In this document: positions 12,977-26,613 of the stretch, in pieces
Position numbering within the stretch: position 1 is the first letter of the stretch
Layout of the letters: every line of letters starts with the position of its first letter
From: a virus
Taxonomy: Duplodnaviria; Caudoviricetes
Virus record (IMG/VR): IMGVR_UViG_3300037245_001177
Span: 1 to 50,063 of that record
Length of the DNA: 50,063 bases
Direction: 5' to 3' (one strand)
Translations under genes and position numbers: made by a program
Notes under the pieces: generated by a model
The model's database searches: none
Told to the model about the DNA's origin: nothing
What the model saw: only the letters and a program-made list of their open reading frames with translations

Positions 12977-13264
12977 TTAAAATTCTAATGAGTTAACATA
13001 AGCCTTTCTAATTTCGATATGAGATTTAAGATCTGTTAAAGTTGCTATTTCAATTGTAAATTCAGGGTTAAATATTTCTAACAAAACAGAAATATCATAA
13101 CTTAAAGCAGATAAACTACTTACTAAATCGTTCTTATGATCTTCATTTAAAGGATGGAGTGCTTCAAACCAATCTTCTGTATCGTCTACAATATCTATTG
13201 TTATTTGATGGTAGTTGTCCGTATTATCTTCAACATCATTAATTATTTCTTCAAAAGTTTTCAT
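12977..13264 (-). CDS. Acidic hypothetical protein
   Basis: ORF track; co-oriented within the operon. Confidence 0.6.
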   Translation of the reverse strand: MKTFEEIINDVEDNTDNYHQITIDIVDDTEDWFEALHPLNEDHKNDLVSSLSALSYDISVLLEIFNPEFTIEIATLTDLKSHIEIRKAYVNSLEF

Positions 13265-13351
13265 TTCTGCTTATTTTGTTTAGAATTAATATTCCTCCTA
13301 TAATTGCTATTAAAATTGCATTTGCTATGTAATGTATTAATAATAATTCCA

Positions 13352-13699
13352 TTATAATAAATCTTTATTTTCGTGAATGTTTCCTACAACTTCCATAAAA
13401 CTACAATCGTGGTAAGCTAAAGGTTGTTTACAGTTGCAGAATTGAGTATTAGCACTATTTTTAGTTGTAAACATACCATCTTCAAAAATAACGGTACTGT
13501 AAAACGCAAAATGGTCTATAATATCACCCTCGTAAATCTCTTTTCCGTTTTTATCTTTTAAGCCAGTAAATTGCATAGGCTCAGATACTTTTATATTTCT
13601 TTCAAAATAAGAAAGTCCTAAATCTATTCTTGCACCAGGAAAATGCTTAAACATAACTTTTGTTTGGTGGTTATAAACTCTAAATTTTATTGTTTTCAT
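13352..13699 (-). CDS. YopX-family protein
   Basis: IKFR...MQFTGLKDKNGKEIYEGDI...EVVGNIHENKDLL. Confidence 0.9.
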   Translation of the reverse strand: MKTIKFRVYNHQTKVMFKHFPGARIDLGLSYFERNIKVSEPMQFTGLKDKNGKEIYEGDIIDHFAFYSTVIFEDGMFTTKNSANTQFCNCKQPLAYHDCSFMEVVGNIHENKDLL

Positions 13700-13701
13700 A
13701 A

Positions 13702-14439
13702 TTAAAAAGGATTAATGTTAAAATCTATTTCGAGATTAGGACATGCAACTGTTACTGTTTTTAAAGTCATCGCCTCAATTTCTTTTTGAAATTGTATCTC
13801 ATCACTATTTGCGTCAGATAAATGTATCAGTACAATATTATTTACTTTAGTTAGATCATTTGCCAGGAGTAGTTTCTTACAAGTTTCAATACTTAAGTGA
13901 GATTCCACTACTCTATTGCGAACAAACGTGTTTAAGTTACCATATCCGGCTTTACTATCCATAATTTCTTCACTATAATTTGCCTCAATTATAATATTGT
14001 TGAGGTTTTTAAACTTATAAGGTGAATAATAAGTATCAGTAAGGAAAAGAACATTACCACATTCTTTGTGGTGAATTAAATATCCGAATGGTTCTACAGC
14101 ATCGTGCTTAACATCGAATGGTAGTATCGTAAAACCACCTATTTTTTGTTTTTCAAGTTTCTTAATAAATCTTTGTCTATGATGATTTGAACCTATTGAA
14201 CTTAGCGTACCACTTGAGGCATAAACATCAATTCCTTTGTTCATAACTTCATTAATTGCAACACAATGATCTTTATGTTCGTGAGTTACGATACAACCGA
14301 CAACTTTAGTTAAATCAAAGTCTAATGCTTTTTGGATTTGAGGAAACTTGACACCACATTCGAGCATCAAAGTTTCCTCGTTATTTCCAAGTAAGTAGCA
14401 ATTACCTTTACTGTTGCTATTAATAACTTTAAGTTTCAT
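13702..14439 (-). CDS. MBL-fold metallo-hydrolase (YycJ-like, probable exonuclease partner of RecT)
   Basis: SKGNCY, THEHKDH, HD, TDT, IEANY, HLS motifs. Confidence 0.88.
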   Translation of the reverse strand: MKLKVINSNSKGNCYLLGNNEETLMLECGVKFPQIQKALDFDLTKVVGCIVTHEHKDHCVAINEVMNKGIDVYASSGTLSSIGSNHHRQRFIKKLEKQKIGGFTILPFDVKHDAVEPFGYLIHHKECGNVLFLTDTYYSPYKFKNLNNIIIEANYSEEIMDSKAGYGNLNTFVRNRVVESHLSIETCKKLLLANDLTKVNNIVLIHLSDANSDEIQFQKEIEAMTLKTVTVACPNLEIDFNINPF

Positions 14440-14442
14440 TAC

Positions 14443-15369
14443 TTAAAATCCTGGTTGCTGCATCATATCAACCTGGCCACTTGCATCAACATCTTTTTTC
14501 AAAGGAGTAGTAGTTGTAGGTTTCTTTTTTATTGGAGCCTCAACTTTTTTTGCTTCAATTTCAATTTCTTTTACATCTTCTGCTTCAATTTCAATTACAG
14601 TAGTATTTGCATTTTCTTCAATTTCACTTTTTACATCTTCTGCAACAACATCAATAGTAGTTTCGTTATCATCACCACCAATTCCTAAAACTCTATCATC
14701 GGAACCTCTAATCAATAATTTACAAGCTCTATTAATAACAGTTTTAATACTCATTTGACCAGGAAAGTTTTTATGGGCTGGAGAATTACCTTTCATAGCT
14801 CCTTGGTTCCACGCTTTTCTGATTTGATTCATATTCATTATCTCAGTATCAAAAGTGCCATCCATCAATTCTTTTACAGCATACGCTCCAATAACTTCAC
14901 CACTTAAACTTTCTAAAGTTTGTTTGTGTTTTGTAACTTTTTTTCTTCCAGTTGCAGTATCAACTTCAAATTCAAATTCATCACCTTTTCTTACAGATAC
15001 ACCACTAATATTTTTAAGGCCACCATATCTTCTTGCCAAGGCAATATTACCAGTATATTCAATAGAACATTCAAGTTTTTTTCCGTACATTATCAAATCA
15101 CATTGTTTTTTTAGTGGAGACAATCCCCAAACAACCATTTTCAATAATGCGTTTGCAATAGATTCCTGAGTGCAATGTGTTAAGGCATTTTGGCCTTGTT
15201 TATTGCTAGTTTCTGCTAAGATTAAGTAAGCAGATTTAAGTGCATTTTCTGGAGAATAATCTTTAGGTATTTTTAATTCTCCACTATTCTTGAAAGATTC
15301 AACTTTCGCTAATACGTGAACAGTAATGTCTTTTTTTACTACTGCTACTTTTTTAGATACATCTGTCAT
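14443..15369 (-). CDS. recT: RecT-family single-strand annealing protein
   Basis: SIANALLKMVVWGLSP, Y.GNIALARR, GAYA, H..F..QM..KTVINRACK. Confidence 0.88.
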   Translation of the reverse strand: MTDVSKKVAVVKKDITVHVLAKVESFKNSGELKIPKDYSPENALKSAYLILAETSNKQGQNALTHCTQESIANALLKMVVWGLSPLKKQCDLIMYGKKLECSIEYTGNIALARRYGGLKNISGVSVRKGDEFEFEVDTATGRKKVTKHKQTLESLSGEVIGAYAVKELMDGTFDTEIMNMNQIRKAWNQGAMKGNSPAHKNFPGQMSIKTVINRACKLLIRGSDDRVLGIGGDDNETTIDVVAEDVKSEIEENANTTVIEIEAEDVKEIEIEAKKVEAPIKKKPTTTTPLKKDVDASGQVDMMQQPGF

Positions 15370-15396
15370 TTTATTTAATTTTAAGTTATTTAATGA

Positions 15397-15519
15397 TTAC
15401 CAAGATTCTCGTTCTTGTCGTTCTTTTTCTGCTTCTATTTCATTGAGATATGTTTCTCTTTTTTCAAAATCTGTCATATCACTATCATCTATTCTGTTGT
15501 ATAAATCGTTTCTTTCCAT
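15397..15519 (-). CDS. Small charged hypothetical protein (40 aa)
   Basis: Read by hand (MERNDLYNRIDDSDMTDFEKRE...); starts 2 nt after the upstream stop. Confidence 0.5.
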   Translation of the reverse strand: MERNDLYNRIDDSDMTDFEKRETYLNEIEAEKERQERESW

Positions 15520-15521
15520 AA

Positions 15522-17471
15522 TTACTTAATTACTAATTTTTTATCCTTAGAAACTACTAAATTAACCAATTGGCTTTCACAAGGTATTAATCTATTAACA
15601 GATTCTCGGTTATCAATGAAAATAGGTGCATTTACTTCATAATAATTTGTAAGTGTATTAATGATGTCAATACCAATATTAATACGAGCTGCATTGTTTA
15701 AATCAGGGAATGGCACACCTTTATATAATGTTTCACAAGATGGAATTCTACCACCATTTATTTGAGTTTCGAACAGTTTAAATTTAGCAAACTTAAATTT
15801 ACTATTTATTTTTGTTTCTAAGGCATTTACTTTTGCTTTTTCGAAGTTTTCCACCTCAAATTCTTGCATTTCAAGTTCAGAAATTTGTTGAGCCAGTTTC
15901 TTTTCTTCTTCTTCTAGTTGGCCAACTCTAATTTTAGCATTTCCAATAGCTGTTTCTTCTGATAATTCAACTTTTAAATTTGATAATTCATTTGATAATG
16001 TATCTCTTCTCATTGGAAGATCCGAATTTTCAAAAGTAGGTTTATCGTTAGTTTTTTCTAAATCAGAAATTTTAGATTCTAAAGAATTATATTCTGAATT
16101 CTTAGATAAAATAAATTCTATAGAAACAGATCCTTTTGGTACATTTAATTTTCCCTCTTCTGCTTCAATTTGTTTTTGTAAAGAGTTAATTTCTTTATTA
16201 CAATTAGTTAATAACACACCTAATTCGTCATGTAGTTTCTCTGCTTTTTCAAGACTACCTTTTAAAGATCCACCTTTAGTGTTAATAGATTTTAATTCAT
16301 TCGACTTATTAAGTTTGAAATTAGTTTCAAATTGTTGTTTCTTAGATTCTAAATCTTCAACTTCTCTTTTACAAGTAGGACAAACACCTTTGCTTTCATC
16401 AAAAACAAAAACTTTTTCATTTTCAGTATTCCATTCTTTTCTTAAATCTAATAAGTCAACATTATAAGATTTAATTAAATCTTCTTGAGATGATAAATCT
16501 CTTTTAATTTGATTGAATACTGAATTATTTACAGTAACTTTACTTCTTAACTCAGTTAATTTAATACCTTTTTCTCTATCAATTTTAGCAAGTTTTTCTT
16601 TTTCATTAAATGAAATCTGTTGCAATTTAGATTTGTAACCAAAAATTTCATCCTGGACCTTAGTGTAATTTTGTTGGGCCTTACTTCTTAAGGTTGACTC
16701 ATCAGAAATAGAATCGTTAATACCTTTCAATTCAAGTTCTGTAACTGCTATATCAGATCTTATTTGAACGAAATTCCTATCAGTTGTAGTATTGCGTGAA
16801 ACTTCATCAATACGAGTAGGAATAACCTTTAAATCATCATTCAACTTCTTTTTTCTAGCTGATAATTCTTTACGGAATTCCTCAATAGTTTTTTGACCTA
16901 ATCCGGTTATTAATTTAAGGAATGTTTCATTTCCTTCTGCAATTTCCATATCAGAAACATCTCCACAAATGTTAATTAAAACACCTCTTCTTTTTTGCCA
17001 ATCCAATTCATTAAAATATAAAGGGTTGGTAATTAGTTTAAAGATACCTTCATCAACCCATTGATTAACTTTAGAAGTATATTCGCTAGATTTCATAGGA
17101 ACATCATTCCAATAGTATAAAGTTTCATGACCTGTAAATTCGGTTTCTAATGATCCTCTTTTTTTAACCCATTTTTCCTTAAAAACTCTTTTTAGGGTAG
17201 TCAATACACCATCAACTTCTAATCCCATAGAAACAAAATGTTCAATCTTAGGAATAGCTACATTATTTTCATCCAAAGTTTTAATATTGAATTGAGTTTT
17301 CCCTAGAGAATTTTTACCAAATAAACAAAATAAAAACCCATCAAATATAGTGGTTTTAAAAGTTGCATTATCTCCACAAATATTAGTGGAAATTTCATCA
17401 AAATCAACTGAAAAATCTCTAAGACCTTTGAAGTTGTAAAATGACATTGTTTTTAGTTTTAATTTTTTCAT
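15522..17471 (-). CDS. SMC/Rad50-like ATPase
   Basis: NFKG, Walker A GDNATFKTT, long coiled coil with CPTC hook, Walker B PIFIDNRES. Confidence 0.88.
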   Translation of the reverse strand: MKKLKLKTMSFYNFKGLRDFSVDFDEISTNICGDNATFKTTIFDGFLFCLFGKNSLGKTQFNIKTLDENNVAIPKIEHFVSMGLEVDGVLTTLKRVFKEKWVKKRGSLETEFTGHETLYYWNDVPMKSSEYTSKVNQWVDEGIFKLITNPLYFNELDWQKRRGVLINICGDVSDMEIAEGNETFLKLITGLGQKTIEEFRKELSARKKKLNDDLKVIPTRIDEVSRNTTTDRNFVQIRSDIAVTELELKGINDSISDESTLRSKAQQNYTKVQDEIFGYKSKLQQISFNEKEKLAKIDREKGIKLTELRSKVTVNNSVFNQIKRDLSSQEDLIKSYNVDLLDLRKEWNTENEKVFVFDESKGVCPTCKREVEDLESKKQQFETNFKLNKSNELKSINTKGGSLKGSLEKAEKLHDELGVLLTNCNKEINSLQKQIEAEEGKLNVPKGSVSIEFILSKNSEYNSLESKISDLEKTNDKPTFENSDLPMRRDTLSNELSNLKVELSEETAIGNAKIRVGQLEEEEKKLAQQISELEMQEFEVENFEKAKVNALETKINSKFKFAKFKLFETQINGGRIPSCETLYKGVPFPDLNNAARINIGIDIINTLTNYYEVNAPIFIDNRESVNRLIPCESQLVNLVVSKDKKLVIK

Positions 17472-17511
17472 AATATTATAGTTTATTTATTAAAATCTCG
17501 TTTGTAATTAA

Positions 17512-18051: not shown

Positions 18052-18118
18052 TTTTGGTTTGGCACTAGTATTAATTGATTATCAGATAGTTAAGTGTTTT
18101 AGTGTTTTGTTTATCAGT

Positions 18119-18229
18119 AGTTGGTAGTGATATTAGCATATTACGTATTGTCCTAAAAAGTCATTAATAACCTCAACTACATAATTTTTGCTAAATGCTA
18201 GGAAAACTTACCTAAAACCTCAACCAACT
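18119..18229. repeat. Non-coding array element A1 (111 bp)
   Basis: AGTTGGT...ACCAACT ends; 2 mismatches to 19735-19845. Confidence 0.95.
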
Positions 18230-18268
18230 CTCAATAAACGGTATTAAAAAATTATCCATCTACAGGTT

Positions 18269-19129
18269 TTAATTTGCCTTACAAAAACAATCAGTTTCGT
18301 AATCCATTTTCGTGTCAAATAAATTACCTTGTGTTTTTTCTAATTCGTGTTTATCTTGAACTGTTCTGAATGGCAGTTTTGCTTTTTCCACTATTTCTTC
18401 AAATGTTATATGGTTTCTTAAATCAAATCTTGGTAATTTTTCAGTACCATATTTATTTTCCATCTTGATCCACCATTCAACACTTTTAGGATTTTCTTTA
18501 ATTAATGTCATTCGTTTACGTAAACTCTTTTTAAAACATAAATCACAATTACCTTGATAATCATTTATCCCTAAATCAAAACTTTGTCTATCCCACCAAT
18601 TTCTTATAAAACTACTATCCACTTGTATATCGTAAATTAATGGATAAATGATGCCTTGATCTAAAGATGTATTACTTTCCCTATGTCTTTCATCAAATCT
18701 AATTCCCATTGCTTTAACAACTTCTTTATAACCTAACGATTTAACAAACTTATCTATTGGCACTTGTTTTAATTCTCTTGTACAGTTAGATGCGTAGCTT
18801 GTTGGTATTGGGTATGCTTGCATCATTGCTTCAAATGGTTCACCATTTCTCGATGCAGTTTCATAATCAACAACTTTAAAATCAGTACCAACACCTTTTT
18901 CTTTATTAATCTTTGCTTCAATCCAAACTACATTTAAATTCCACTCTTTATCACATTTATTAATAAAATCTAATGTTTCTGGCAATTCTTTTCCTGTATT
19001 TGCATATATATATAATTTATCATATTCATCATATTTACAGTAATCTTTTAAAAACAACCCCATAAAAGCTGATGTACGACCTCCACTAAATGTGCAAACT
19101 AATAATTTATCTTTTTTCATACTTTCCAC
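18269..19129 (-). CDS. PAPS-reductase / adenine nucleotide alpha-hydrolase family protein (likely start 19120)
   Basis: FSGGRTS PP-loop, ANTGKE, CTRELK, GIRFDE..R, YPL, GNCDLCFKK. Confidence 0.85.
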   Translation of the reverse strand: MESMKKDKLLVCTFSGGRTSAFMGLFLKDYCKYDEYDKLYIYANTGKELPETLDFINKCDKEWNLNVVWIEAKINKEKGVGTDFKVVDYETASRNGEPFEAMMQAYPIPTSYASNCTRELKQVPIDKFVKSLGYKEVVKAMGIRFDERHRESNTSLDQGIIYPLIYDIQVDSSFIRNWWDRQSFDLGINDYQGNCDLCFKKSLRKRMTLIKENPKSVEWWIKMENKYGTEKLPRFDLRNHITFEEIVEKAKLPFRTVQDKHELEKTQGNLFDTKMDYETDCFCKAN

Positions 19130-19290
19130 ATATCAGGGTAATTATTGTTATTTGAAAATTCTATTTCACCGTTACAAATAGGACATTCAAAATCAAGACT
19201 AATTAAATCTCGCCAACAATCATTTATTTTTATAACAGGTTCTGCAACACCATCTGTTGCTATTATATTGTTACATTTACATTTTTTCAT
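19117..19290 (-). CDS. Small Cys-rich protein (57 aa), possible zinc ribbon
   Basis: Read by hand (MKKCKCNN...FECPICNGEI...); ATGA overlap with the next gene. Confidence 0.6.
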   Translation of the reverse strand: MKKCKCNNIIATDGVAEPVIKINDCWRDLISLDFECPICNGEIEFSNNNNYPDMWKV

Positions 19291-19376
19291 AATATTGTTA
19301 TTTTAATTATTAATATTTGGCTAAAGCCATTTGCATTTCAAATTTTTTAAAATCGTTTATCGTGTTAAGTTCTAAA

Positions 19377-19709
19377 CTATAAAACAATTTTTGTTAATTC
19401 ATTCAATGGTATGCTTATGTAAACATTTTTCGTGAAATTGTTTTGTATGTTTGCAACTTTTTTTTCATAATCTATGAGAAGTATTCTGCATTTTATACTA
19501 TCAAAAATAACTTTATCGTATTTTTTAAAACTATTGTTTAACAGTAGAGAACTCTGGAATAAAACCAATAAATTTTTAACTTCAGTTATTTCTTCCTTCA
19601 CTCGTTTTGCACTCGATAAATTATTACCATCATCATCATCTTCAAAATATCCTAATTCATAATCAAGTGTTTTAAGTCTTTGCTCTAAGTATTCTTTTAT
19701 TTCTTTCAT
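19377..19709 (-). CDS. Hypothetical protein, in-frame fusion across an array core
   Basis: Q52-SSL is encoded by CAG AGT TCT CTA across the core at 19550-19553. Confidence 0.7.
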   Translation of the reverse strand: MKEIKEYLEQRLKTLDYELGYFEDDDDGNNLSSAKRVKEEITEVKNLLVLFQSSLLLNNSFKKYDKVIFDSIKCRILLIDYEKKVANIQNNFTKNVYISIPLNELTKIVL

Positions 19710-19734
19710 AATATTTAATTGTTTTATTCGTGCT

Positions 19735-19845
19735 AGTTGGTAGTGATATTAGCATATTACGTATTGTCCTAAAAAGTTATTAATAACCTCAACTACATAA
19801 TTTTTGTTAAATGCTAGGAAAACTTACCTAAAACCTCAACCAACT
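19735..19845. repeat. Non-coding array element A3 (111 bp)
   Basis: Near-identical to 18119-18229. Confidence 0.95.
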
Positions 19846-19884
19846 CTGCGTATAAGTGATATAAATTAGCCTTTACGCTTTGTT

Positions 19885-20781
19885 TTAGCACTGCAACCCT
19901 TTAAAAATATGCTTAATAACCTCAACAGTCCAACCATTACCAAGCATTTTAAACCTATGAGAGTTCGCTACTCCACTTGTATAATTGTCTGGTACGGTTT
20001 GTAACCTCTCGCACTCAATAGGTGTGTATTTATGTATTTCCTTTAAGTCATTCACGCAATAGGTAGGTTTTTGTCCTTTAGCCATATTTGCAGTCAAACA
20101 ACTTGCTTTTCCTTTTGCATTAAAAAACGCATCTAATCTTGTTTTATCTCCCCATTTATTAAGCATCCAACCAGCATAGTTTTTATTAAACTCAGCATCT
20201 TCTTCTAATATATCATAAACACATTGCTTATTTTCAACCTCTATTTTATCAATAGGTATATTTGTCCAATACAATCTAGGTCTGTTATGTGCAGATAAAA
20301 CTTTAGAGTTTATTAATATTGGCTCAACGCCGATCGCTTTACTTATAACCTCTTGCCACTTTTTACTCATTTTTACATTCTCTAATAAAAAATATTTTGG
20401 GTTGGTTTCTTTTAGTACTCGTATAAATTCCCAAAACAAATAACTTTCACCTTTAAATTCAAATCCGTTATTTTTTAAGTCAAGGTAATGCTTTAAGGTA
20501 AGTATTTCAACATCGTTTTCACTTTTCATACCTATCATAGTTCCTGCAAAACTAAAATTTTGGCAACTACTACCTCCAATCAATAATCCTATTTTGTGAT
20601 TACCACTGTATTTTATTTTCGTAATATCACCTATTTGCCTTGTGTTTGGGTAGTTTTTCATTGTTACCCTCATTGCATTTTCATCAATCTCGCTTGCGAA
20701 ATAGTTATCTACTTTAATTCCTAATTGGTCGAGTGCTATTTGTCCGCAGCTCATACCATCAAATAAACTTAGTACATTCAT
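19885..20781 (-). CDS. DNA (cytosine-5) methyltransferase
   Basis: Motif I LSLFDGMSCG, IV GGSSCQNFS, VI LLENV, VIII RPRLYW, IX-X ECERLQT...LGNGW. Confidence 0.92.
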   Translation of the reverse strand: MNVLSLFDGMSCGQIALDQLGIKVDNYFASEIDENAMRVTMKNYPNTRQIGDITKIKYSGNHKIGLLIGGSSCQNFSFAGTMIGMKSENDVEILTLKHYLDLKNNGFEFKGESYLFWEFIRVLKETNPKYFLLENVKMSKKWQEVISKAIGVEPILINSKVLSAHNRPRLYWTNIPIDKIEVENKQCVYDILEEDAEFNKNYAGWMLNKWGDKTRLDAFFNAKGKASCLTANMAKGQKPTYCVNDLKEIHKYTPIECERLQTVPDNYTSGVANSHRFKMLGNGWTVEVIKHIFKGLQC

Positions 20782-20861
20782 TTCCTTATATTTTAAATTT
20801 TCAATTTAATTTCCTTTCTTAAAAAATTTATACCTCTTATGCTCTATAAAGTTCTAAAAAA

Positions 20862-21152
20862 TTACCGTTTAAGTAACCAGTCGTGATATTCCTCGAACCC
20901 TAATCTATAACTTAAAAGTAAATATGTACTTGAACCAATACTAGAAGTTTGTTTTATATCTTCTATTCTACTTTCTAATTCTAAGTTCATTTCTTTTTTT
21001 GTCGGCAACTTTAGAGAACTCTGCGCATAATTGATTTTAGCTTCAAGCCATTCTACATAATCTTCAGTATAAGCTATTTCTTTACCCTCAGACCAAATAA
21101 ATACATCTAATCCTGTTTCTCCTCTAAATTCTTTTTTTAATTTTAAGTCCAT
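20862..21152 (-). CDS. Hypothetical protein, in-frame fusion across an array core
   Basis: Q44-SSL is encoded by CAG AGT TCT CTA across the core at 21017-21020. Confidence 0.7.
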   Translation of the reverse strand: MDLKLKKEFRGETGLDVFIWSEGKEIAYTEDYVEWLEAKINYAQSSLKLPTKKEMNLELESRIEDIKQTSSIGSSTYLLLSYRLGFEEYHDWLLKR

Positions 21153-21202
21153 AATTTATTTAATTTATTGTTAATCTATTCTAAAAACAATCATTCACTG
21201 TA

Positions 21203-21315
21203 AGTTGGTAGTGAGTTGGGCAGGCTTTCTATATAAACAGTAACTGTTGTTTAATTCTTTAGTTTACCCTCATTTATTTATCAAGTAATATATCTCCCAA
21301 AGCCCACAACCAACT
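21203..21315. repeat. Non-coding array element A5 (113 bp)
   Basis: AGTTGGTAGTG...CACAACCAACT inverted ends; internal CCTCA. Confidence 0.8.
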
Positions 21316-21335
21316 CTCAATAAAAGTATAACTTA

Positions 21336-21518
21336 CTATCGTTTTTTATAATAATACTCTTTTGCTTCATCTTCTTTATCAAAGTGTAAAACTGTTTCCC
21401 TTCTATAACACATATTTAATTCACCATCAAATACGCCTATATTTTCAATTGTTATTTTTTTTCCTTCTAATTTTAAAGTGGGTTTTTCATTACTCCCACC
21501 CATACAAATTTCTGACAT
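21336..21518 (-). CDS. Hypothetical cassette protein (60 aa)
   Basis: Fits exactly inside segment 21312-21569. Confidence 0.65.
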   Translation of the reverse strand: MSEICMGGSNEKPTLKLEGKKITIENIGVFDGELNMCYRRETVLHFDKEDEAKEYYYKKR

Positions 21519-21565
21519 TTTATTAAGTTTTATAATTATTAATTCGTTATTCTTTTATTGTGTTT

Positions 21566-21675
21566 AGTTGTAATTAATGCTTGTTGTCTTTAACCTCAAC
21601 AAAAACGTGTGATAACCTCAGCTATAATAATGTCAATTAAAGTCTTTTAAGACCCTCAATCACGTAATAACAACT
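21566..21675. repeat. Non-coding array element A6 (110 bp)
   Basis: AGTTGTAATTA...TAATAACAACT; three CCTCA motifs. Confidence 0.8.
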
Positions 21676-21695
21676 CTGTATAACTCACAATACTA

Positions 21696-21845
21696 CTAAT
21701 CGCTTATTAATACACCTGTTATAAGCCCTCCAACCATAAAAAATAAATGAGCTGGGTTTGCTTCAATGTTTAAATATCTGTGTGCTATGAAAGTTGCTAT
21801 ACAAAATCCAATCGTTCCTGCTATTATTTTTATTATTTTTTTCAT
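21696..21845 (-). CDS. Small two-TM membrane protein (49 aa)
   Basis: Read by hand: MKKIIKIIAGTIGFCIATFIAHRYLNIEANPAHLFFMVGGLITGVLISD; fits segment 21672-21897. Confidence 0.65.
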   Translation of the reverse strand: MKKIIKIIAGTIGFCIATFIAHRYLNIEANPAHLFFMVGGLITGVLISD

Positions 21846-21893
21846 ATTTATTTAATTTAGTGTTTATTTAACGTTTCGTGTGTTATACTTGTA

Positions 21894-22007
21894 AGTTGGT
21901 AGTGATATTAGCGTATTAGTTTTAATGTCCTAAGTAATCAGCAATAACCTCAACTGTTGTAATGCTTGTTGTAAGCCTTTTTAGACTACCTAAGACCTCT
22001 ACCAACT
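21894..22007. repeat. Non-coding array element A7 (114 bp), diverged relative of A1/A3
   Basis: Shares AGTTGGTAGTGATATTAGC, TGTCCTAA, AATAACCTCAACT and TACCTAA.ACCTC.ACCAACT with A1. Confidence 0.9.
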
Positions 22008-22038
22008 CCCAATATAATTGATAATTTAAAAACTCCAT

Positions 22039-22362
22039 CTACAACGGTTCAAGGTATATTATTGGTTTACCAATAGATTCAGCATAATTTAATTCACTTC
22101 TTGTAGATTCACCAATATATCCGCCTACATTCAAAATAACAACTTCGTCCGATATATCTATTTTCCTTTTATGTAATTCGTCAAGTATATCTTTAACACC
22201 TTCCTTTTCTGCACCGTGATGATTTTCTCCTTCAAAATAACCATTAGGTAATATATTTATTCCAAGTGTAATAATTCCTTGTTTTTCTAATAACCAACGT
22301 TCAATCATAAAAGTTTGAGCGAATCTTGTTGAGCCACAAAAGCATACTGTTTTAGTTTTCAT
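22039..22362 (-). CDS. Nucleoside deoxyribosyltransferase-like (Rossmannoid) protein
   Basis: CGSTRF, LHKRKIDISD.V.ILNVGGYIGESTRSE..YA...GKPI. Confidence 0.65.
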   Translation of the reverse strand: MKTKTVCFCGSTRFAQTFMIERWLLEKQGIITLGINILPNGYFEGENHHGAEKEGVKDILDELHKRKIDISDEVVILNVGGYIGESTRSELNYAESIGKPIIYLEPL

Positions 22363-22452
22363 CTTTTTATATTTAATTATTAATATTTAATTTTTATCAA
22401 AATTATTTGCTACCACTTTCTTAAATCACCAATCATATAGGTGTTAAGTTAA

Positions 22453-22596
22453 TCAAACATTTAAAAGTTTCTTAAACGGTTTTTCTAATTCTCGAAATAA
22501 GTGTCTTAATGCAATGTTAAGTTCTATAAACGCACCCTGGGTAGTTCCTAATCTTACTAATTGTCTTTGCTCTAAATTGAATAATGGTTTTTTCAT
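22453..22596 (-). CDS. Small hypothetical protein (47 aa) inside array element A8
   Basis: Read by hand (MKKPLFNLEQRQLVRLGTTQGAFIELNIALRHLF...); fits 22447-22618. Confidence 0.6.
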   Translation of the reverse strand: MKKPLFNLEQRQLVRLGTTQGAFIELNIALRHLFRELEKPFKKLLNV

Positions 22597-22635
22597 AATA
22601 TTTAAACGTTAGTTAACTCTGTAAATATTTTATAC

Positions 22636-22890
22636 TTATTTTTTTAATTCTATACTAAACTTTAAAGTGGTTAGGTCATAACCTCTACGCTCAAGTTCAT
22701 CTTTTAAACTTTCAGATCTAAAACAAAACCTCTCTCTTTTTAAAGCCTTTTCTAAATCCCAAAGTAATTGTTCATTAATTATGTTGTGTAAAATCAAAGC
22801 TCCATCACACCTTCTTGGGTATTTGACCACAAAGTCTTTTTGTCTTTTATCGTATATAAGCGATAGTTTGTTTTCGTTATGCTTTGCCAT
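22636..22890 (-). CDS. Hypothetical cassette protein (84 aa)
   Basis: ELERRGYDLTTLKFSI C-terminus; fits segment 22615-22950. Confidence 0.7.
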   Translation of the reverse strand: MAKHNENKLSLIYDKRQKDFVVKYPRRCDGALILHNIINEQLLWDLEKALKRERFCFRSESLKDELERRGYDLTTLKFSIELKK

Positions 22891-22946
22891 TTGTTTTATA
22901 TTTTATAAGTTAATTTTGTGTTTACTCGTACAAATTATTTACTGTA

Positions 22947-23055
22947 AGTTAATCTGTCATTTTTGTTGGTGTAATAACCTCAACGTTTAACGTGTTTAAA
23001 AGGTTATTGTTAATTCTAAAATTAGTGTTTATCCCTCAAAACCGTTCAGTTAACT
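22947..23055. repeat. Non-coding array element A9 (109 bp)
   Basis: AGTTAATCTG...CAGTTAACT; two CCTCA motifs; partial copy at 23662-23705. Confidence 0.85.
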
Positions 23056-23101
23056 CTGTATAACCGGTACAATAAAAAAGCCATCTACACGTGTTATTTC
23101 T

Positions 23102-23425
23102 TTATTTAGTGCTAATTTTTAATTTAAGTCGTAAATTAAGTTCATCTATATCTTCTTTGTAATCGTCATTAAAGAATACGGTGTAATATTTTTTTAAATT
23201 ACCAAGCTCATCTTTTTTAACAAATTTATCTATAATATGAATTACGCTACCTTTTTTAAAATCATCTATTTCTTTATATACTTTAAACTCGTGTTCGATT
23301 GATTCACCAATACTATATATGTATGGGTTCTTTAATATAAAGTTTTCCTCTTTATAATGGTTGTTAATGTGTTCTAAACCTAAAATTTCAGATTCTAATT
23401 CTTCTACTTTTTTTCTATTAAACAT
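23102..23425 (-). CDS. Hypothetical protein
   Basis: ORF track; AT-rich leader. Confidence 0.65.
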   Translation of the reverse strand: MFNRKKVEELESEILGLEHINNHYKEENFILKNPYIYSIGESIEHEFKVYKEIDDFKKGSVIHIIDKFVKKDELGNLKKYYTVFFNDDYKEDIDELNLRLKLKISTK

Positions 23426-23449
23426 AATTTATTTATTTAGTGTTAAAAT

Positions 23450-23608
23450 TTAATTTTTACGCTTTTTCCAAATCCAATCAATATAATATTCACCATCCAT
23501 AAATCTTTTATCCCATAATAAAAAACCTATTAAAGAACTTATTAATCCAATTGCAGCAGCTAATATAGTTGCTATTATTTTTACTAAAAAATTTAATGCT
23601 TTTATCAT
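23450..23608 (-). CDS. Small membrane protein (52 aa)
   Basis: Read by hand (MIKALNFLVKIIATILAAAIGLISSLIGFLLWDKRF...). Confidence 0.6.
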   Translation of the reverse strand: MIKALNFLVKIIATILAAAIGLISSLIGFLLWDKRFMDGEYYIDWIWKKRKN

Positions 23609-23740
23609 TTTTATTTTGTTTAATTGTTAATATTTAAAAATATAATGTTATTGTGTTAGTCGTTAATCTGTCATTTTTGTTGGCGTAATACCCTCATTGT
23701 TTAACCACCTACACCTGTTAAAATGTAGATGGAGTTTTAA

Positions 23741-23995
23741 TTAAATTTTTTCAAATGTTGTCCCGTTTTCAGTCATGATATAACAAGGTGCATCAATTAA
23801 AATTGAATCATCGGTTAATATCACAACAACAACTTTATCAACATATTCATCCCTAATATCAAGGTAATATTTTTGTAATGTTTTTTTCCATTGATCATGT
23901 GTTTGATCGTTCCTTTTAATAAGCTGATAATCTCTTCCCAAAATTGTGTTCATTGGGTTCCCTTCTTTGTTAAATCTTCTTAAAATAAAATTCAT
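23741..23995 (-). CDS. Hypothetical protein
   Basis: C-terminal YIMTENGTTFEKI pattern recalled from phage small proteins. Confidence 0.65.
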   Translation of the reverse strand: MNFILRRFNKEGNPMNTILGRDYQLIKRNDQTHDQWKKTLQKYYLDIRDEYVDKVVVVILTDDSILIDAPCYIMTENGTTFEKI

Positions 23996-24274
23996 AATGT
24001 GTATATATTTATATATTTGCCTACTCTATTAGCTTTTCGGCTTCCGCTTAATATCTTGGTATCACAATTTGTGATGTCATTTTAATTTTTCAAATTAATC
24101 ACCTTCGCTCTTTTTTTATTGCATCGGTTATACTGTTAGTTGGTATTGAGTTTTGTTAGCTTTAATTCATCAATGGTCATAACTTTTGGTTATTACGTTC
24201 ACTAAATAGCAATAAGTTGCTAATTATATGAGTATTTTACTATTAAAAGCAATATGTTGCTCCTACTCCAAAAA

Positions 24275-25137: not shown

Positions 25138-25551
25138 TTAAATAGTATTGATATTGATTGCTAAACCTTTTTCAATAAGTCCGAATACATCGAAGTGGTT
25201 TTTAACCAACCTCTCAAATTCCCAATAATTATTAAACATAGGCTTGTATGTTAAGTAATTGAAGTACCTTAAATTTTTACCTAATAATTGTTCAACCCAA
25301 GATGTTCCGTTTTCTTCTGGATTATATTCCAACTCGCATTCTTTTACTAAATCTGATAATGGTCTTAGTATTGGTTTGATTTCAAATATCTGACGTCCTG
25401 ATACTGGATAGGATGGTTTCGTTTGTACTGCAACTTCATCTGCTCCATCATTACATAATCCATACAACTCTTTCGGTTCATCACTATATGAATCCCATAC
25501 CTTCAAAGTGTAAGGCAAATAAGGTGCTAAGTGTTTTAATTCAAGTTTCAT
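25138..25551 (-). CDS. Conserved phage hypothetical protein
   Basis: LKHLAPYLPY...IKPILRPLSDL...HFDVFGLIEKGLAININT. Confidence 0.75.
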   Translation of the reverse strand: MKLELKHLAPYLPYTLKVWDSYSDEPKELYGLCNDGADEVAVQTKPSYPVSGRQIFEIKPILRPLSDLVKECELEYNPEENGTSWVEQLLGKNLRYFNYLTYKPMFNNYWEFERLVKNHFDVFGLIEKGLAININTI

Positions 25552-25851: not shown

Positions 25852-26613
25852 ATGGCACATCGAGAATTATTGGAATTACAGGAAGAAACAAAAAAAATCA
25901 CACAAAGAATTAATCAACTTATTGAAAATTCTAAGAAAATTGAAACACACCCTTTCTATTGCCCTGGATTAGACAATAAGGAACCAAAAGAAACTAAACT
26001 TGAAGTAGGGAAGTGGTATAAAACAAACCACGGTTGCTTATTTAATTATAACGGAAATATAGATAAAGAGAACGACCCTTGTGGTTATGGGTTTAGTATG
26101 AGTGGCAAATGGTTTGAAATAGATAATTCAGACGATGGTGGTTGGGAATCTAATCCAACTCCATCCACCGACCAAGAAGTTGAAGCAGCTTTGATTAAGG
26201 AAGCTAAAAAACGAGGGTTTGAAGAAGCTAAAAATATTAAATCTATTACATTCGAAGGTAAAACTATGGAATTATCTAAGGCTTCTGAATTTCAGTTTAA
26301 AGATGGTGAATTGAGAAGATGGGAACTAAGTGGTGGATATGTTGTTATATTTTACAAAGGCAAATGGGCCACAATCATTGAAGATCAAAAACCTAAGATT
26401 TGTGGGTATGAGATGGAAGAAAAAGAGATGGATGGAATTAAATATGTTAAATTTGGTTGTGAAATTTTTGATACCGGAGATGTAAGAAGATTTTACGATT
26501 CTGCAGTAAAATTAGGAATAAAATCATTTACTATTTTTGGAGCCGGACCATCAGACCAATACGAAATAGGTATTTCAGAATTAAAAGAAGTAGTTGAATA
26601 CTTAATTAAATAA
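25852..26613 (+). CDS. Hypothetical protein
   Basis: 253 aa ORF followed by a terminator. Confidence 0.75.
   Translation: MAHRELLELQEETKKITQRINQLIENSKKIETHPFYCPGLDNKEPKETKLEVGKWYKTNHGCLFNYNGNIDKENDPCGYGFSMSGKWFEIDNSDDGGWESNPTPSTDQEVEAALIKEAKKRGFEEAKNIKSITFEGKTMELSKASEFQFKDGELRRWELSGGYVVIFYKGKWATIIEDQKPKICGYEMEEKEMDGIKYVKFGCEIFDTGDVRRFYDSAVKLGIKSFTIFGAGPSDQYEIGISELKEVVEYLIK

What the first reader, a model, noticed from the sequence alone, without database searches (positions are those of the whole stretch)
18075..24155. Integrase-less, integron-like array with genes carried inside giant attC-like loops
Seen: two segment types alternate strictly and share 4-bp cores. B segments have the form AACT-CT-[arm]...gene(s)...[arm']-N4-5-AGTT at 18226-19371, 19550-19738, 19842-20853, 21017-21206, 21312-21569, 21672-21897, 22004-22450, 22615-22950 and 23052-24141. 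Each has its own 13-23 bp imperfect inverted repeat, even across 1.1 kb. Examples (left arm vs reverse complement of right arm): CAATAAACGGTATTAAAAAATT vs CGATAAACGATTTTAAAAAATT (19/22); GCGTATAAGTGATATAAATT vs GAGCATAAGAGGTATAAATT (16/20); CAATAAAAGTATAAC vs CAATAAAAGAATAAC (14/15); GTATAACCGGTACAATAAAAAA vs GTATAACCGATGCAATAAAAAA (20/22). The intervening A segments (AGTTxxx...xxxAACT) also have self-complementary ends. Arms differ between segments but covary within a segment, so structure is conserved rather than sequence. Established: integron attC sites are folded ssDNA substrates with AAC/GTT cores, an unpaired spacer, L boxes and a normally short non-coding terminal loop. Inference: this is an attC-like system whose loop has expanded to hold genes, giving the phage a modular accessory locus. 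No tyrosine recombinase is encoded, so any recombinase would have to act in trans.
Basis: partly seen in the sequence, partly recalled or inferred. Interest (0 to 1): 0.93.

Follow-up and report, generated by a model that had tools for sequence, protein, structure and literature searches.

The report
Stem-bracketed gene modules in phage arrays
In this phage's accessory-gene region, and in at least three other marine phages, each gene or half-gene is enclosed by its own pair of matching inverted repeats anchored on the same four-base core, an arrangement that looks built for swapping genes and fits no described system.

Summary
In the window, all 9 B segments begin with AACT and end with AGTT. 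Each left arm matches its own right arm better than any other (9 of 9; 0 of 100,000 permutations). A core-plus-arm scan finds 7 hits, all inside 18226-24141, against a mean of 0.275 in 40 shuffles.

Pattern searches found the same layout in three other complete phage records. G001 has 12 of 12 cognate modules, G002 has 9 of 9, and G003 has 2 modules. No protein is shared by all four phages.

Similarity between genomes sits on the junctions, while the cargo differs. The stems favour the sense strand: 33 G·U pairs against 5 A·C. Mismatches pile up at arm positions 10 and 12. About a third of the stems end in mid-ORF, where N- and C-terminal protein modules are recombined.

None of the four phages encodes a tyrosine or serine recombinase, a Y1 transposase or an RNase III.

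My best reading (about 0.4) is that these are recombination modules defined by structure. They follow attC-like logic but are not an integron. The main rival (about 0.3) is RNA panhandle stems combined with recombination at conserved linkers.

The parts
18119..18229 (-). Non-coding A element, type 1. Sense strand reads AGTTGGTTGAGG...TCACTACCAACT. It is the low-coordinate boundary of the array.
   Evidence: Copies at 19734 (98%) and 21894 (74%). Alignment and closing stem.
18226..19371 (-). B1 module. Arms at 18232-18253 and 19341-19362. Cargo is a PAPS-reductase-like ORF (18269-19129) and a 57-aa ORF (19117-19290).
   Evidence: Arm score 15 against 7 for the best non-cognate arm. PF01507 and phrog_424 hits.
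19368..19553 (-). Coding A segment: the C-terminal module of ORF 19377-19709.
   Evidence: The ORF reads through the core at 19550 in frame (...FQ|SS|LLL).
19550..19738 (-). B2 module (189 bp): the N-terminal module of ORF 19377-19709. The 3' arm lies inside the coding sequence.
19735..19845 (-). Non-coding A element, type 1.
19842..20853 (-). B3 module. Cargo is a C5 cytosine methyltransferase (19885-20781).
   Evidence: PF00145 at 8.8e-34 and phrog_116. The UTR frame is shared with the methyltransferase modules of G001 and G003.
20850..21020 (-). Coding A segment: the C-terminal module of ORF 20862-21152.
21017..21206 (-). B4 module (190 bp): the N-terminal module of ORF 20862-21152. Its arms are the weakest (12 of 14).
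21203..21315 (-). Non-coding A element, type 1b (GGTTGTGGGC...CAACTCACTACC).
   Evidence: Its 5' part is homologous to G001 14825-14846.
21312..21569 (-). B5 module with a 60-aa ORF (21336-21518). Its arms are identical to those of G001 14843-15029, which encloses an unrelated 38-aa ORF.
21566..21675 (-). Non-coding A element with its own closing stem (AGTTGTTATTA...TAATTACAACT).
21672..21897 (-). B6 module with a 49-aa ORF (21696-21845).
21894..22007 (-). Non-coding A element, type 1.
   Evidence: fold z-score -3.69.
22004..22450 (-). B7 module with a 107-aa ORF (22039-22362). Its arms have four G·U pairs on the sense strand.
   Evidence: The antisense fold fails to close.
22447..22618 (-). 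Module with a 47-aa ORF (22453-22596). It has a double core, AGTTAACT, at 22611 and its own short inverted repeat (AACGTTTAAA / TTTAAATGTT).
22615..22950 (-). B8 module with an 84-aa ORF (22636-22890).
22947..23055 (-). Non-coding element, type 2, with a double core at 23048. It is 81% identical over 129 nt to G001 15394-15520.
23052..24141 (-). B9 module. Arms at 23058-23079 and 24112-24133 (20 of 22 across 1032 nt). It holds three ORFs (23102-23425, 23450-23608, 23741-23995) and an internal partial copy of the type-2 element (23662-23705).
   Evidence: (I9, D8).
24018..24050 (-). DUF805b RNA motif in the 5' leader of ORF 23741-23995, inside B9.
   Evidence: Rfam RF02914, 47.1 bits against a gathering score of 35.6, E = 3.7e-11.
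24138..24163 (-). A-like end (AGTTGGTATTGAG) that closes the array on the high-coordinate side. No partner end was found.
   Evidence: (D7).

Best explanation
The region is an array of exchangeable DNA modules in the leftward accessory (probably early) gene block of a phage.

Each module is one of three things: a whole small gene or gene group, the N- or C-terminal half of a gene, or a ~110-nt non-coding spacer. Each is closed by an imperfect stem of about 20 bp. The base of every stem is the same four bases: AACT on the 5' side and AGTT on the 3' side of the sense strand. Neighbouring modules share these cores. This forces two module classes to alternate: AACT...AGTT and AGTT...AACT.

I read the cores, together with the pairing of a module's two arms in the single-stranded sense strand, as the recombination joint. 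Folding brings the two cores of a module together into a duplex-like site. That site is recognised by shape: a 4-5 bp core helix, an asymmetric spacer, 9 pairs, a mismatch at position 10 and a G·T(U) at position 12. Strand exchange at the cores moves or replaces modules.

This is the logic of an integron attC site, but with the gene inside the loop. No integrase is encoded by the phage. The enzyme would therefore be host-encoded or of an unknown family. Alternatively, the phages' own single-strand annealing proteins and hairpin-type nucleases could do the job.

Shown: the anatomy, cognate covariation, strand bias, recurrence in four phages, conservation of junctions with turnover of cargo, and new module adjacencies at the cores.

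Inferred: that folding happens in ssDNA rather than RNA, that the cores are the crossover points, and the identity of the enzyme.
For: 1. Cognate arms. Window 9 of 9, G001 12 of 12 and G002 9 of 9 are row maxima. In each, 0 of 100,000 permutations reached the observed sum.

2. The AACT/AGTT core is the same at all 32 modules of the four genomes, while spacers and arms differ by genome.

3. Stem geometry is conserved. Of 68 mismatches, 16 fall at arm position 10 and 16 at position 12 (drawn).

4. Strand bias. There are 33 sense-strand G·U(T) pairs against 5 A·C, with 507 Watson-Crick pairs. All 17 small cassettes close end to end in the sense-strand minimum-energy fold, against 15 of 17 for the antisense strand.

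5. Stems follow recombination units, not cistrons. In 10 of 32 modules the last ORF reads through the 3' core; one of the ten (B7) is probably a spurious small ORF. N- and C-terminal modules occur in different combinations that break at the core: window 20862-21152 is N family X plus C family P; G001 13939-14232 is X plus Q; G001 17185 and 18366 are Y plus P.

6. Similarity between genomes sits on the junctions. Of 280 HSP ends, 170 lie within 35 nt of a core (null mean 53.7, max 74). Of 140 HSP sides, 73 span a core. Junction pieces are 81-98% identical between phages that share at most a few proteins at 30-53% identity, and no protein is shared by all four.

7. At B5 the homology with G001 runs through the 3' core into the downstream A element. 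It stops at the 5' core (21570), beyond which the A elements differ.

8. Contigs of related variants in three metagenome runs join a type-2 element to the B5 arm (at 21312) and to the B3 arm (at 19842) exactly at AACT. They also join a B-type end to the AGTT at 19735 (tables 5 and 5c).

9. Each module flanked by inverted junctions, with two classes that must alternate, is the layout described for Acinetobacter dif modules (passages of PMC13141974). It is also the layout of attC and ORF segments in integron arrays (recalled).
Against: - None of the four phages encodes a tyrosine or serine recombinase or a Y1 transposase, and no protein is common to all four. The enzyme is therefore hypothetical.
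- Loops of 180-1149 nt are far larger than any attC loop, and ssDNA folding over 1.1 kb is unproven.
- A G·U excess as strong as 33 to 5 is the classic mark of RNA structure, and the polarity is fixed relative to transcription in 32 of 32 modules.
- New adjacencies are seen at both AACT and AGTT cores, unlike the single crossover point of integrons.
- Identical arms enclose unrelated ORFs, and identical UTR frames carry different arms and three unrelated methyltransferases. So much of the exchange happens at CDS boundaries, not at the cores.
- HSP ends are only mildly enriched within 6 nt of a core: 20 against a null mean of 9.2 (null max 21).
- The metagenome joints have short sides (20-47 nt), low depth and 80% likeness. 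The tool warns that such joints can come from repeats or from other organisms.
- No excised circle and no empty site was seen.
- Wobble counts are inflated by paralogous arms.
Confidence: 0.4

Rival explanations
1. RNA panhandles plus linker recombination. The arms pair in the long leftward transcript, 5' leader with 3' trailer of each module. This would delimit, stabilise or process each unit, for example as double-stranded substrates of a host RNase III-type enzyme, as with the stems around 16S and 23S rRNA. Module shuffling would then be a by-product of short conserved junction sequences used by the phages' annealing proteins, as proposed for PeSLs in T4-type phages.
For: - Sense-strand G·U 33 against A·C 5.
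- Sense folds close in 17 of 17 cassettes, antisense in 15 of 17.
- Polarity is fixed with gene direction in 32 of 32 modules.
- In all 32 modules the first ORF starts 22-142 nt after the 5' core, so it lies downstream of the 5' spacer and of most or all of the 5' arm. In 22 of 32 the stop lies 4-57 nt before the 3' core.
- A conserved 9-bp helix, mismatch and wobble resemble a protein-recognised dsRNA.
- Three of 34 junctions have an extended -10-like TGnTAAWAT ending 7 nt before AACT.
- A recognised cis-regulatory RNA motif lies in one leader.
- The window phage encodes RecT and G001 encodes Erf and NinB.
- Only host functions can be common to phages that share no protein.
Against: - About a third of the stems end inside ORFs that continue into the next module. 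Cleavage there would give mRNAs without a stop codon.
- Some 5' arms abut the start codon (window B2, G001 15134-15404), and pairing there would block initiation.
- It does not explain why one 4-nt core is universal and shared by adjacent stems that then compete for it, why non-coding spacers are also stem-closed, or why the stems tile the region without gaps.
- Junction stretches of 40-130 nt at 81-98% identity between unrelated phages look like exchanged DNA, not just a conserved RNA signal.
- No phage RNase III, and no minus-strand intrinsic terminators.
Confidence: 0.3
2. Conserved linker or regulatory cassettes only (PeSL-like). The A elements and junction sequences are repeated regulatory pieces. 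General homologous or annealing-protein recombination between them shuffles genes. The gene-flanking inverted repeats are historical residue with no function of their own.
For: - Direct repeats of A elements flank the modules.
- Junctions are conserved while cargo is replaced.
- Annealing proteins are present.
- PeSLs are documented to mediate such exchange and to form mini-circles (abstract and passages of PMC2839356; abstract of PMC4122927).
Against: - It cannot explain 30 of 30 cognate arm pairs in the three larger arrays, covariation between paralogous modules including coding 3' arms, the fixed mismatch positions or the strand bias.
- No sigma-70-type promoter excess: 36 found against 47 expected.
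- No local terminator stem-loops on the sense strand.
Confidence: 0.1
3. Double-stranded site-specific recombination by a host tyrosine recombinase, as in Acinetobacter dif modules. Each junction would be one asymmetric site: variable half, AGTT-containing spacer, conserved half GGTWGWG. Sites alternate in orientation, so two module classes alternate.
For: - The layout is the same as for C and D dif modules: inverted sites, strict alternation, one conserved and one variable half-site (passages of PMC13141974).
- Several arms resemble XerC-side sequences. GCGTATAA and GCGCATAA compare with TTCGTATAA in Table 1 of that paper.
Against: - No second half-site and no dyad symmetry within a junction (my reading).
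- A dsDNA site needs no cognate pairing between the two ends of a module and predicts no G·T strand bias.
- Inverted sites predict inversions, yet 32 of 32 modules keep one orientation.
- The 'ATAA' resemblance is weak in a genome of 30% G+C.
Confidence: 0.07
4. Nested insertions of miniature inverted-repeat elements. A and/or B segments would be non-autonomous transposons with terminal inverted repeats that insert into the palindromic AGTT^AACT target of earlier copies.
For: - Terminal inverted repeats with conserved outer bases.
- Double cores AGTTAACT occur where two modules abut directly (22611, 23048, G001 15505).
- A variant contig lacks the type-1 A interior between AGTT and AACT next to B3.
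- Element lengths fall into classes: 109-116, 171-186 and 182-193 nt.
Against: - No transposase in any of the four phages.
- No target-site duplication.
- Arm sequences differ between elements, which a single transposase would not tolerate.
- The elements carry parts of ORFs in frame.
Confidence: 0.05

Closest known systems
Integron cassette arrays, attC sites and integrase-less attC clusters (CALINs)
   Same: Imperfect inverted repeats whose sequence varies while the structure is kept. AAC...GTT triplets sit at the base of the stem, next to an asymmetric unpaired spacer. Irregularities occur at fixed positions and one strand is favoured. Two segment types (AAC...GTT and GTT...AAC) alternate, and the cargo is promoter-poor accessory genes in one orientation. 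The properties of attC and CALINs are recalled, not taken from a call.
   Different: - The gene lies inside the stem-closed segment rather than between hairpins.
- Segments are 180-1149 bp instead of 57-141 bp.
- No intI, attI or Pc.
- The outer R-box positions do not fit RYYYAAC (TACCAAC matches 5 of 7).
- New adjacencies occur on both sides.
- Conserved ~110-nt spacers separate the modules.
- The carrier is a phage without an integrase.
Acinetobacter plasmid dif (pdif) modules served by host XerC/XerD
   Same: Each module is bounded by inversely oriented junction sites shared with its neighbours, so two module classes must alternate. One half of the site is conserved and the other is variable. 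The enzyme is supplied by the host. There is extensive shuffling of accessory modules (passages of PMC13141974).
   Different: There is no recognisable 11-6-11 XerC/XerD site. The two ends of a module are complementary to each other over about 20 nt with covariation and strand bias, which dif modules do not need. All modules keep one orientation. The modules are far smaller and include half-genes.
PeSL promoter/stem-loop cassettes of T4-type phages
   Same: Short conserved non-coding cassettes between small non-essential genes of a phage plastic region. Cargo differs between related phages while the cassettes persist. Exchange is attributed to recombination at the cassettes (abstracts and passages).
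   Different: A PeSL is a local terminator hairpin plus a sigma-70 promoter, acting as direct repeats. Here the pairing partners lie on opposite sides of the gene, there is a universal 4-nt core, and no sigma-70 or local-terminator signal was found.
Long-range RNase III processing stems (16S/23S rRNA precursors; T7 early mRNA sites)
   Same: Pairing of sequences 5' and 3' of a functional RNA across hundreds to thousands of nucleotides. The stems are imperfect with conserved internal irregularities, and G·U pairs are tolerated (recalled knowledge).
   Different: This has not been described around every cistron of a phage operon. Here the stems also close non-coding spacers and half-ORFs, and adjacent stems share the same four bases.

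Membership tests
Integron (cassette array with attC sites) | An IntI tyrosine recombinase gene next to the array | tested here: not met
   PF00589 gave 0 matches at E<=1 in six frames of G000-G003, while the control genomes rang 14 of 14.
Integron (cassette array with attC sites) | Conserved AAC and GTT triplets at the base of an imperfect palindrome | tested here: met
   All 32 modules begin with AACT and end with AGTT.
Integron (cassette array with attC sites) | attC length of about 57-141 bp with a non-coding loop, and the ORF lying between attC sites | tested here: not met
   The stem-closed segments are 180-1149 bp and contain the ORFs. The size range of attC is recalled.
Integron (cassette array with attC sites) | A score above threshold with an attC covariance model (IntegronFinder or HattCI) | not testable with these tools
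   No attC model is in Rfam. Testing would need joined, loop-deleted sequences, which I did not build.
Integron (cassette array with attC sites) | Recombination of the folded bottom strand, with crossover only at the R' GTT | tested here: inconclusive
   Strand bias is present (33 to 5), but new adjacencies occur at both AACT and AGTT cores.
dif (pdif) modules | A 28-bp site made of an XerC half, a 6-bp spacer and an XerD half (TTATGTTAAAT-like) | tested here: not met
   No XerD-like half and no dyad within a junction when read against Table 1 of PMC13141974. This comparison was by eye only.
dif (pdif) modules | Modules flanked by inversely oriented sites, with two classes alternating | tested here: met
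PeSL cassettes | A strong sigma-70-type early promoter next to a local terminator stem-loop | tested here: not met
   36 promoter-like sites against 47 expected, and no minus-strand terminator-like site. Only 3 of 34 junctions have an extended -10-like motif.
PeSL cassettes | Cassettes persist while the ORFs between them are gained, lost or replaced | tested here: met
RNase III-type long-range processing stems | 5' and 3' flanks of an RNA pair into a stem of about 20 bp in the transcribed strand | tested here: met
   Sense-strand minimum-energy folds close in 17 of 17 cassettes. G·U 33 against A·C 5.
RNase III-type long-range processing stems | Cleavage in the stem, seen as transcript ends | not testable with these tools
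   No RNA holder was listed for this sequence.
Invertible segments (shufflon or inverton) | Segments found in both orientations, with an invertase nearby | tested here: not met
   32 of 32 modules are in one orientation. No PF00589 or PF00239 match.

The most novel reading that the evidence does not exclude
A previously unrecognised kind of recombination site defined by structure. A whole gene or half-gene sits in the loop of a folded single strand whose two arms rebuild a duplex site on an AACT/AGTT core. Phages that share no proteins use this site as a common currency to swap genes and protein domains, served by a host enzyme or an unknown enzyme. An even bolder variant that my data do not exclude is that excision and joining at the same stems happens at the RNA level, giving alternative N-module and C-module fusions from one array.
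Probability: 0.3. Interest if true: 0.95.

Novelty: new variant of a known kind. Interest (0 to 1): 0.85.

Why it matters
How phages gain and swap small accessory genes at gene boundaries is a long-standing question. One view is conserved linkers; the other is random recombination followed by selection.

Here the boundaries are marked by a precise, testable structure. It recurs in four otherwise unrelated phage genomes, and it also splits genes into exchangeable halves.

If the stems are recombination sites, this would be a gene-cassette system outside integrons that carries no recombinase of its own. It would also suggest a route to building modular phage genomes.

If the stems act in RNA, this would be an unusual way of packaging each message of a long operon in a host group that does not use Shine-Dalgarno sequences.

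Either result can be reached with ordinary experiments.

Tried and rejected
- Close relatives for breakpoint mapping. The SbcC-like neighbour (15522-17471) found only distant relatives: 47% identity at best in IMG/VR (19 loci) and 57% at most in metagenome contigs (17 loci). None carried the AACT/AGTT pattern or a TGAGG motif cluster.
- Megablast of the region against phage records gave one 111-bp hit in a Dcm gene.
- Exact patterns. AGTTGGTAGTGATATTAG gave 0 hits. AATAACCTCAAC-N-CCAACT gave 64 single hits, all chance on inspection. The 22-mer of the type-2 element matched only G001.
- The genome-contig scan gave one hit in a coding stretch of 53% G+C, judged to be chance.
- The looser pattern returned many hits from an unrelated conserved coding region with palindromic ends 112 nt apart. 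It also led to G002 and G003.
- A generic core-free search for chained inverted repeats was swamped by AT-rich noise: 559 repeats, and the longest chain was unrelated.
- A search for 'empty' hairpins (arms with a short loop) found none inside the arrays.
- tRNA or tRNA-like reading of the A elements: 0 tRNAs. Rfam gave only DUF805b.
- T7-like promoter reading of ...CTCACTACC...: no PF00940 match, but the control rang nowhere, so absence is not shown.
- Sigma-70 scan: fewer sites than in shuffles. The Bacteroidota-type TTTG/TAnnTTTG motif does not fall in the A elements.
- A phage-encoded enzyme shared by carriers: none. No ORF has homologues in all four genomes. The two proteins shared by the window and G001 (25852-26613 and 25138-25551) have no Pfam family.
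- Expression: no RNA holder was listed for this stretch.
- The Xer half-site resemblance was judged too weak to use.
- Literature searches found nothing describing gene-flanking cognate repeats in phage arrays. These are word searches of open-access text only, so this is weak evidence of novelty. Supplementary files were not consulted.

Full report
WHAT THE WINDOW IS

The window is a complete virus record of 50,063 bp with 29.6% G+C. Runs holding it are labelled marine sediment metagenome.

Only 2 of 42 larger ORFs have a Shine-Dalgarno-like motif. From recalled knowledge, this suggests a host in the Bacteroidota. That is an inference, not a result.

All genes in 17.5-25.5 kb lie on the minus strand. 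Downstream are a DnaB-like helicase, a DnaD-like loader, a RecT-like annealing protein, a metal-dependent hydrolase and an SbcC-like ATPase.

The array cargo is:
- a PAPS-reductase-like protein;
- a C5 cytosine methyltransferase;
- small ORFs without family matches.

CHECK OF THE OBSERVATION

Every B segment starts with AACTC(T/C) and ends with AGTT at the stated coordinates, and the quoted arms are correct.

Each left arm matches its own right arm best:
- 9 of 9 are row maxima. The diagonal mean is 11.9 against an off-diagonal mean of 6.2 (sd 1.3).
- 0 of 100,000 random pairings reached the observed sum.

A scan requiring AACT, a 1-3 nt spacer, an arm, then arm', a 3-6 nt spacer and AGTT gave these results:
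- 7 hits at score >=10, all in 18226-24141 and all in one orientation.
- B4 and B6 are weaker and fell below the threshold.
- The rest of the genome reaches 9.5 at most.

Controls:
- 40 dinucleotide shuffles gave a mean of 0.275 and a maximum of 2.
- 307 kb of distant relatives gave 4 hits of 10.5 or less.
- 571 kb of chance loci gave hits in 2 loci.

The statement about A segments holds for the ~110-nt non-coding elements. These have invariant ends, AGTTGGT... and ...TCACTACCAACT, and fold with closing stems of about 17 bp. It holds only weakly for the coding A segments.

ANATOMY ON THE SENSE (MINUS) STRAND

A module reads, in order:
- AACT;
- a spacer of 4-9 nt;
- the 5' arm and leader;
- one or more ORFs;
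- the 3' arm;
- a spacer of 1-6 nt, most often AG;
- AGTT.

The stem has a conserved shape:
- a core helix of 4-5 bp;
- an asymmetric spacer, always longer on the 5' side;
- about 9 pairs;
- a mismatch at arm position 10, most often A·A;
- one pair;
- a G·U or a mismatch at position 12;
- 3-10 further pairs.

Of 68 mismatches in 32 modules, 16 fall at position 10 and 16 at position 12.

Segment lengths fall into classes:

| Segment type | Length (nt) |
|---|---|
| Non-coding A | 109-116 |
| Coding A | 171-186 |
| Small B | 182-193 |

Two junctions carry a double core, AGTTAACT.

The A elements hold a TGAGG(G/T) motif. Fifteen of the 24 minus-strand occurrences in the genome lie in 18175-23696.

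THE SAME LAYOUT IN OTHER PHAGES

A pattern built from the two ends of the A element found a complete 36,672-bp phage, G001. A looser pattern led to G002 (38,811 bp) and G003 (49,987 bp).

| Genome | Modules | Cognate row maxima | Permutations reaching observed sum |
|---|---|---|---|
| G001 | 12 | 12 of 12 | 0 of 100,000 |
| G002 | 9 | 9 of 9 | 0 of 100,000 |
| G003 | 2 | not tested | not tested |

Further points:
- G004 to G006 contain single A-like elements that I did not analyse further.
- The AACT/AGTT core is the same in all four genomes, while spacers differ. G002, for example, uses GTATTAGA on the 5' side and GCAT on the 3' side.
- The window and G001 share five weak ORF matches at 37-53% identity, none in the arrays.
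- No ORF has homologues in all four genomes.
- None of the four encodes a tyrosine recombinase, serine recombinase, Y1 transposase or RNase III at E<=1.

WHAT IS CONSERVED AND WHAT TURNS OVER

Nucleotide similarity between the arrays is concentrated on the junctions:
- Of 280 HSP ends, 170 lie within 35 nt of a core (null mean 53.7, max 74).
- Of 140 HSP sides, 73 span a core.
- Enrichment within 6 nt is mild: 20 against 9.2.

Three examples show the pattern.
- Window B5 and G001 14843-15029 have identical arms, including the same mismatch. Their downstream A elements are homologous at the start. They enclose unrelated ORFs of 60 and 38 aa. The homology stops at the 5' core on the upstream side.
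- Three methyltransferase modules share the same 5' leader and 3' trailer at 88-98% identity. Their enzymes differ: phrog_116 in the window, phrog_757 in G001, and in G003 a 248-aa ORF with an SPPY motif that I did not scan against any family library. The window's arms differ from those of G001 and G003.
- Contigs of related variants in three metagenome runs place a type-2 element next to the B5 arm and the B3 arm exactly at AACT, and a B-type end next to the AGTT at 19735. These joints have short sides and low depth, and the tool warns about such cases. I count them as hints only.

STEMS FOLLOW EXCHANGE UNITS, NOT CISTRONS

In 10 of 32 modules the last ORF reads through the 3' core into the next segment. 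The one in B7 is probably a spurious small ORF.

These are two-part genes of about 95-110 aa. The N-terminal part lies in a ~190-nt B module, and its last codons form the 3' arm. The C-terminal part lies in a ~173-nt A-type module.

N and C families occur in different combinations that break at the core:

| ORF | N family | C family |
|---|---|---|
| Window 20862-21152 | X | P |
| G001 13939-14232 | X | Q |
| G001 13195-13494 | another | Q |
| G001 17185-17472 | Y | P |
| G001 18366-18650 | Y | P |
| G001 16555-16761 | Y | short tail |

The E-values are 1e-6 to 0.03 in a very small database and the modules are short, so this is moderate evidence.

Paralogous N modules have different 3' arms, and their 5' leaders have changed to match.

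WHICH STRAND FOLDS

Across the 32 modules there are 507 Watson-Crick pairs. There are 33 G·U or U·G pairs on the sense strand, against 5 A·C or C·A pairs, which would be the wobbles of the antisense strand. Another 30 mismatches are of other kinds (binomial p = 4e-6). That p-value is optimistic because related arms are counted more than once.

Thirty of the 33 have the G in the 5' arm, often at position 12. This looks like a conserved feature rather than mere tolerance of wobble pairs.

Two further results agree:
- The type-1 A stem has a G·U in 9 of 9 copies and one covarying pair (U-A in 6, G-C in 3).
- Folded alone, 17 of 17 small cassettes close end to end on the sense strand and 15 of 17 on the antisense strand.

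The functional form is therefore most likely single-stranded and of sense polarity. That means either RNA or the sense DNA strand. For genes co-oriented with replication, the sense strand would be the lagging-strand template (inference).

WEIGHING THE EXPLANATIONS

Points that favour a DNA exchange joint:
- one universal 4-nt core is shared by adjacent stems;
- the stems tile the region without gaps;
- non-coding spacers are also stem-closed;
- some stems end in mid-ORF exactly where protein modules are re-assorted;
- junction stretches are 81-98% identical between phages with almost no shared proteins.

Points that favour RNA:
- the strength of the G·U excess;
- the fixed polarity relative to transcription;
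- loop sizes up to 1.1 kb;
- the absence of any phage recombinase.

Much exchange also clearly happens at CDS boundaries inside the arms. That points to general or annealing-protein recombination in the conserved leaders and trailers, as proposed for PeSLs.

My weights are:

| Explanation | Weight |
|---|---|
| Structure-defined recombination modules (attC-like logic, enzyme unknown) | about 0.4 |
| RNA panhandles plus linker recombination | about 0.3 |
| Linkers only | 0.1 |
| dif-module-like double-stranded site | 0.07 |
| Nested miniature transposons | 0.05 |
| Other explanations | the remainder |

COMPARISON WITH KNOWN SYSTEMS

The array works most like an integron cassette array, and its layout also matches dif-module arrays. 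It is a member of neither:
- there is no integrase;
- the segments are far outside the attC size range;
- there is no Xer site.

It shares with PeSLs the role of conserved cassettes between replaceable small genes. It lacks their promoter-plus-local-terminator anatomy.

I found no description of gene-flanking cognate repeats on a shared core in phage arrays. These were word searches of open-access text only.

VERDICT

This is a real, statistically solid feature that recurs in other genomes. The mechanism is open and can be tested directly.

Noticed in passing
window 24018-24050 (-): A DUF805b RNA motif (Rfam RF02914, 47.1 bits, E = 3.7e-11) lies in the leader of the 84-aa ORF 23741-23995, inside module B9. 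The ORF has no Pfam or PHROG family.
   Followed up: no
window 19842-20853; L155 15509-16482; L236 12117-13265: Three methyltransferase modules occupy one conserved frame with the same 5' leader (AGAAAGG(G)AAATTAAATTGAAAATTTAAAA) and the same 3' trailer (GCTAAAACAAAGCGYAAAGGC). The window enzyme is phrog_116 and the G001 enzyme is phrog_757. The G003 ORF (SPPY motif, 248 aa) was called a methyltransferase by eye only. In the window the Dcm ORF runs into the conserved trailer.
   Followed up: partly
window 19377-19709 and 20862-21152; L155 13195-13494, 13939-14232, 16555-16761, 16826-17113, 17185-17472, 18366-18650: A set of 68-110-aa proteins is built from interchangeable N- and C-terminal modules joined at the AGTT core. 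Recurrent junction peptides are QSS-L, (N/A)SCEQL and LFGV. Their function is unknown.
   Followed up: partly
window 18255-18265, 22033-22041, 23080-23090, 23710-23740; L235 (G002 22790-22800, 23940-23950): The motif TGTAGATGG (sense strand) recurs just after the stop codons of several cargo ORFs in two genomes, usually followed by a T run that forms the start of the 3' arm. At 23710-23740 it forms a local hairpin.
   Followed up: no
window 18175-23696 (-): TGAGG(G/T) is enriched in the non-coding A elements: 15 of the 24 minus-strand occurrences in the genome. It is also present in A elements of G001-G003. It could be a protein-binding site.
   Followed up: partly
window 18122, 19738; G002 21484: In 3 of 34 junctions an extended -10-like TGnTAAWAT ends exactly 7 nt before AACT. 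That would place a transcription start on the core. Most junctions lack it.
   Followed up: partly
L156 700-1215 (G001 19700-20215); L156 7284-7850, 6464-6877: G001 carries an HNH endonuclease directly upstream of its array, and an Erf-like annealing protein plus NinB elsewhere. The window phage carries RecT and an SbcC-like protein next to its array. The recombination genes differ but the array layout is the same.
   Followed up: no
L170 2378-2498; G004 11221-11344; G005 415-526; G006 12997-13113: Single A-like elements (AGTTGGTWG ... CWACCAACT, about 110-120 nt) occur in other AT-rich viral contigs without an obvious array. L170 has a perfect 13-bp terminal inverted repeat.
   Followed up: no
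L158, L159, L164, L166 and about 30 further loci: An unrelated family of phages (about 47% G+C) has a conserved coding stretch bounded by AGTTGGTAG and CTACCAACT exactly 112 nt apart. These are false positives of the pattern.
   Followed up: yes
window 25138-25551 (-) and 25852-26613 (+): Two proteins without Pfam families flank a divergent intergenic region upstream of the array. They are among the five ORFs shared with G001 (41-42% identity) but are absent from G002 and G003.
   Followed up: partly
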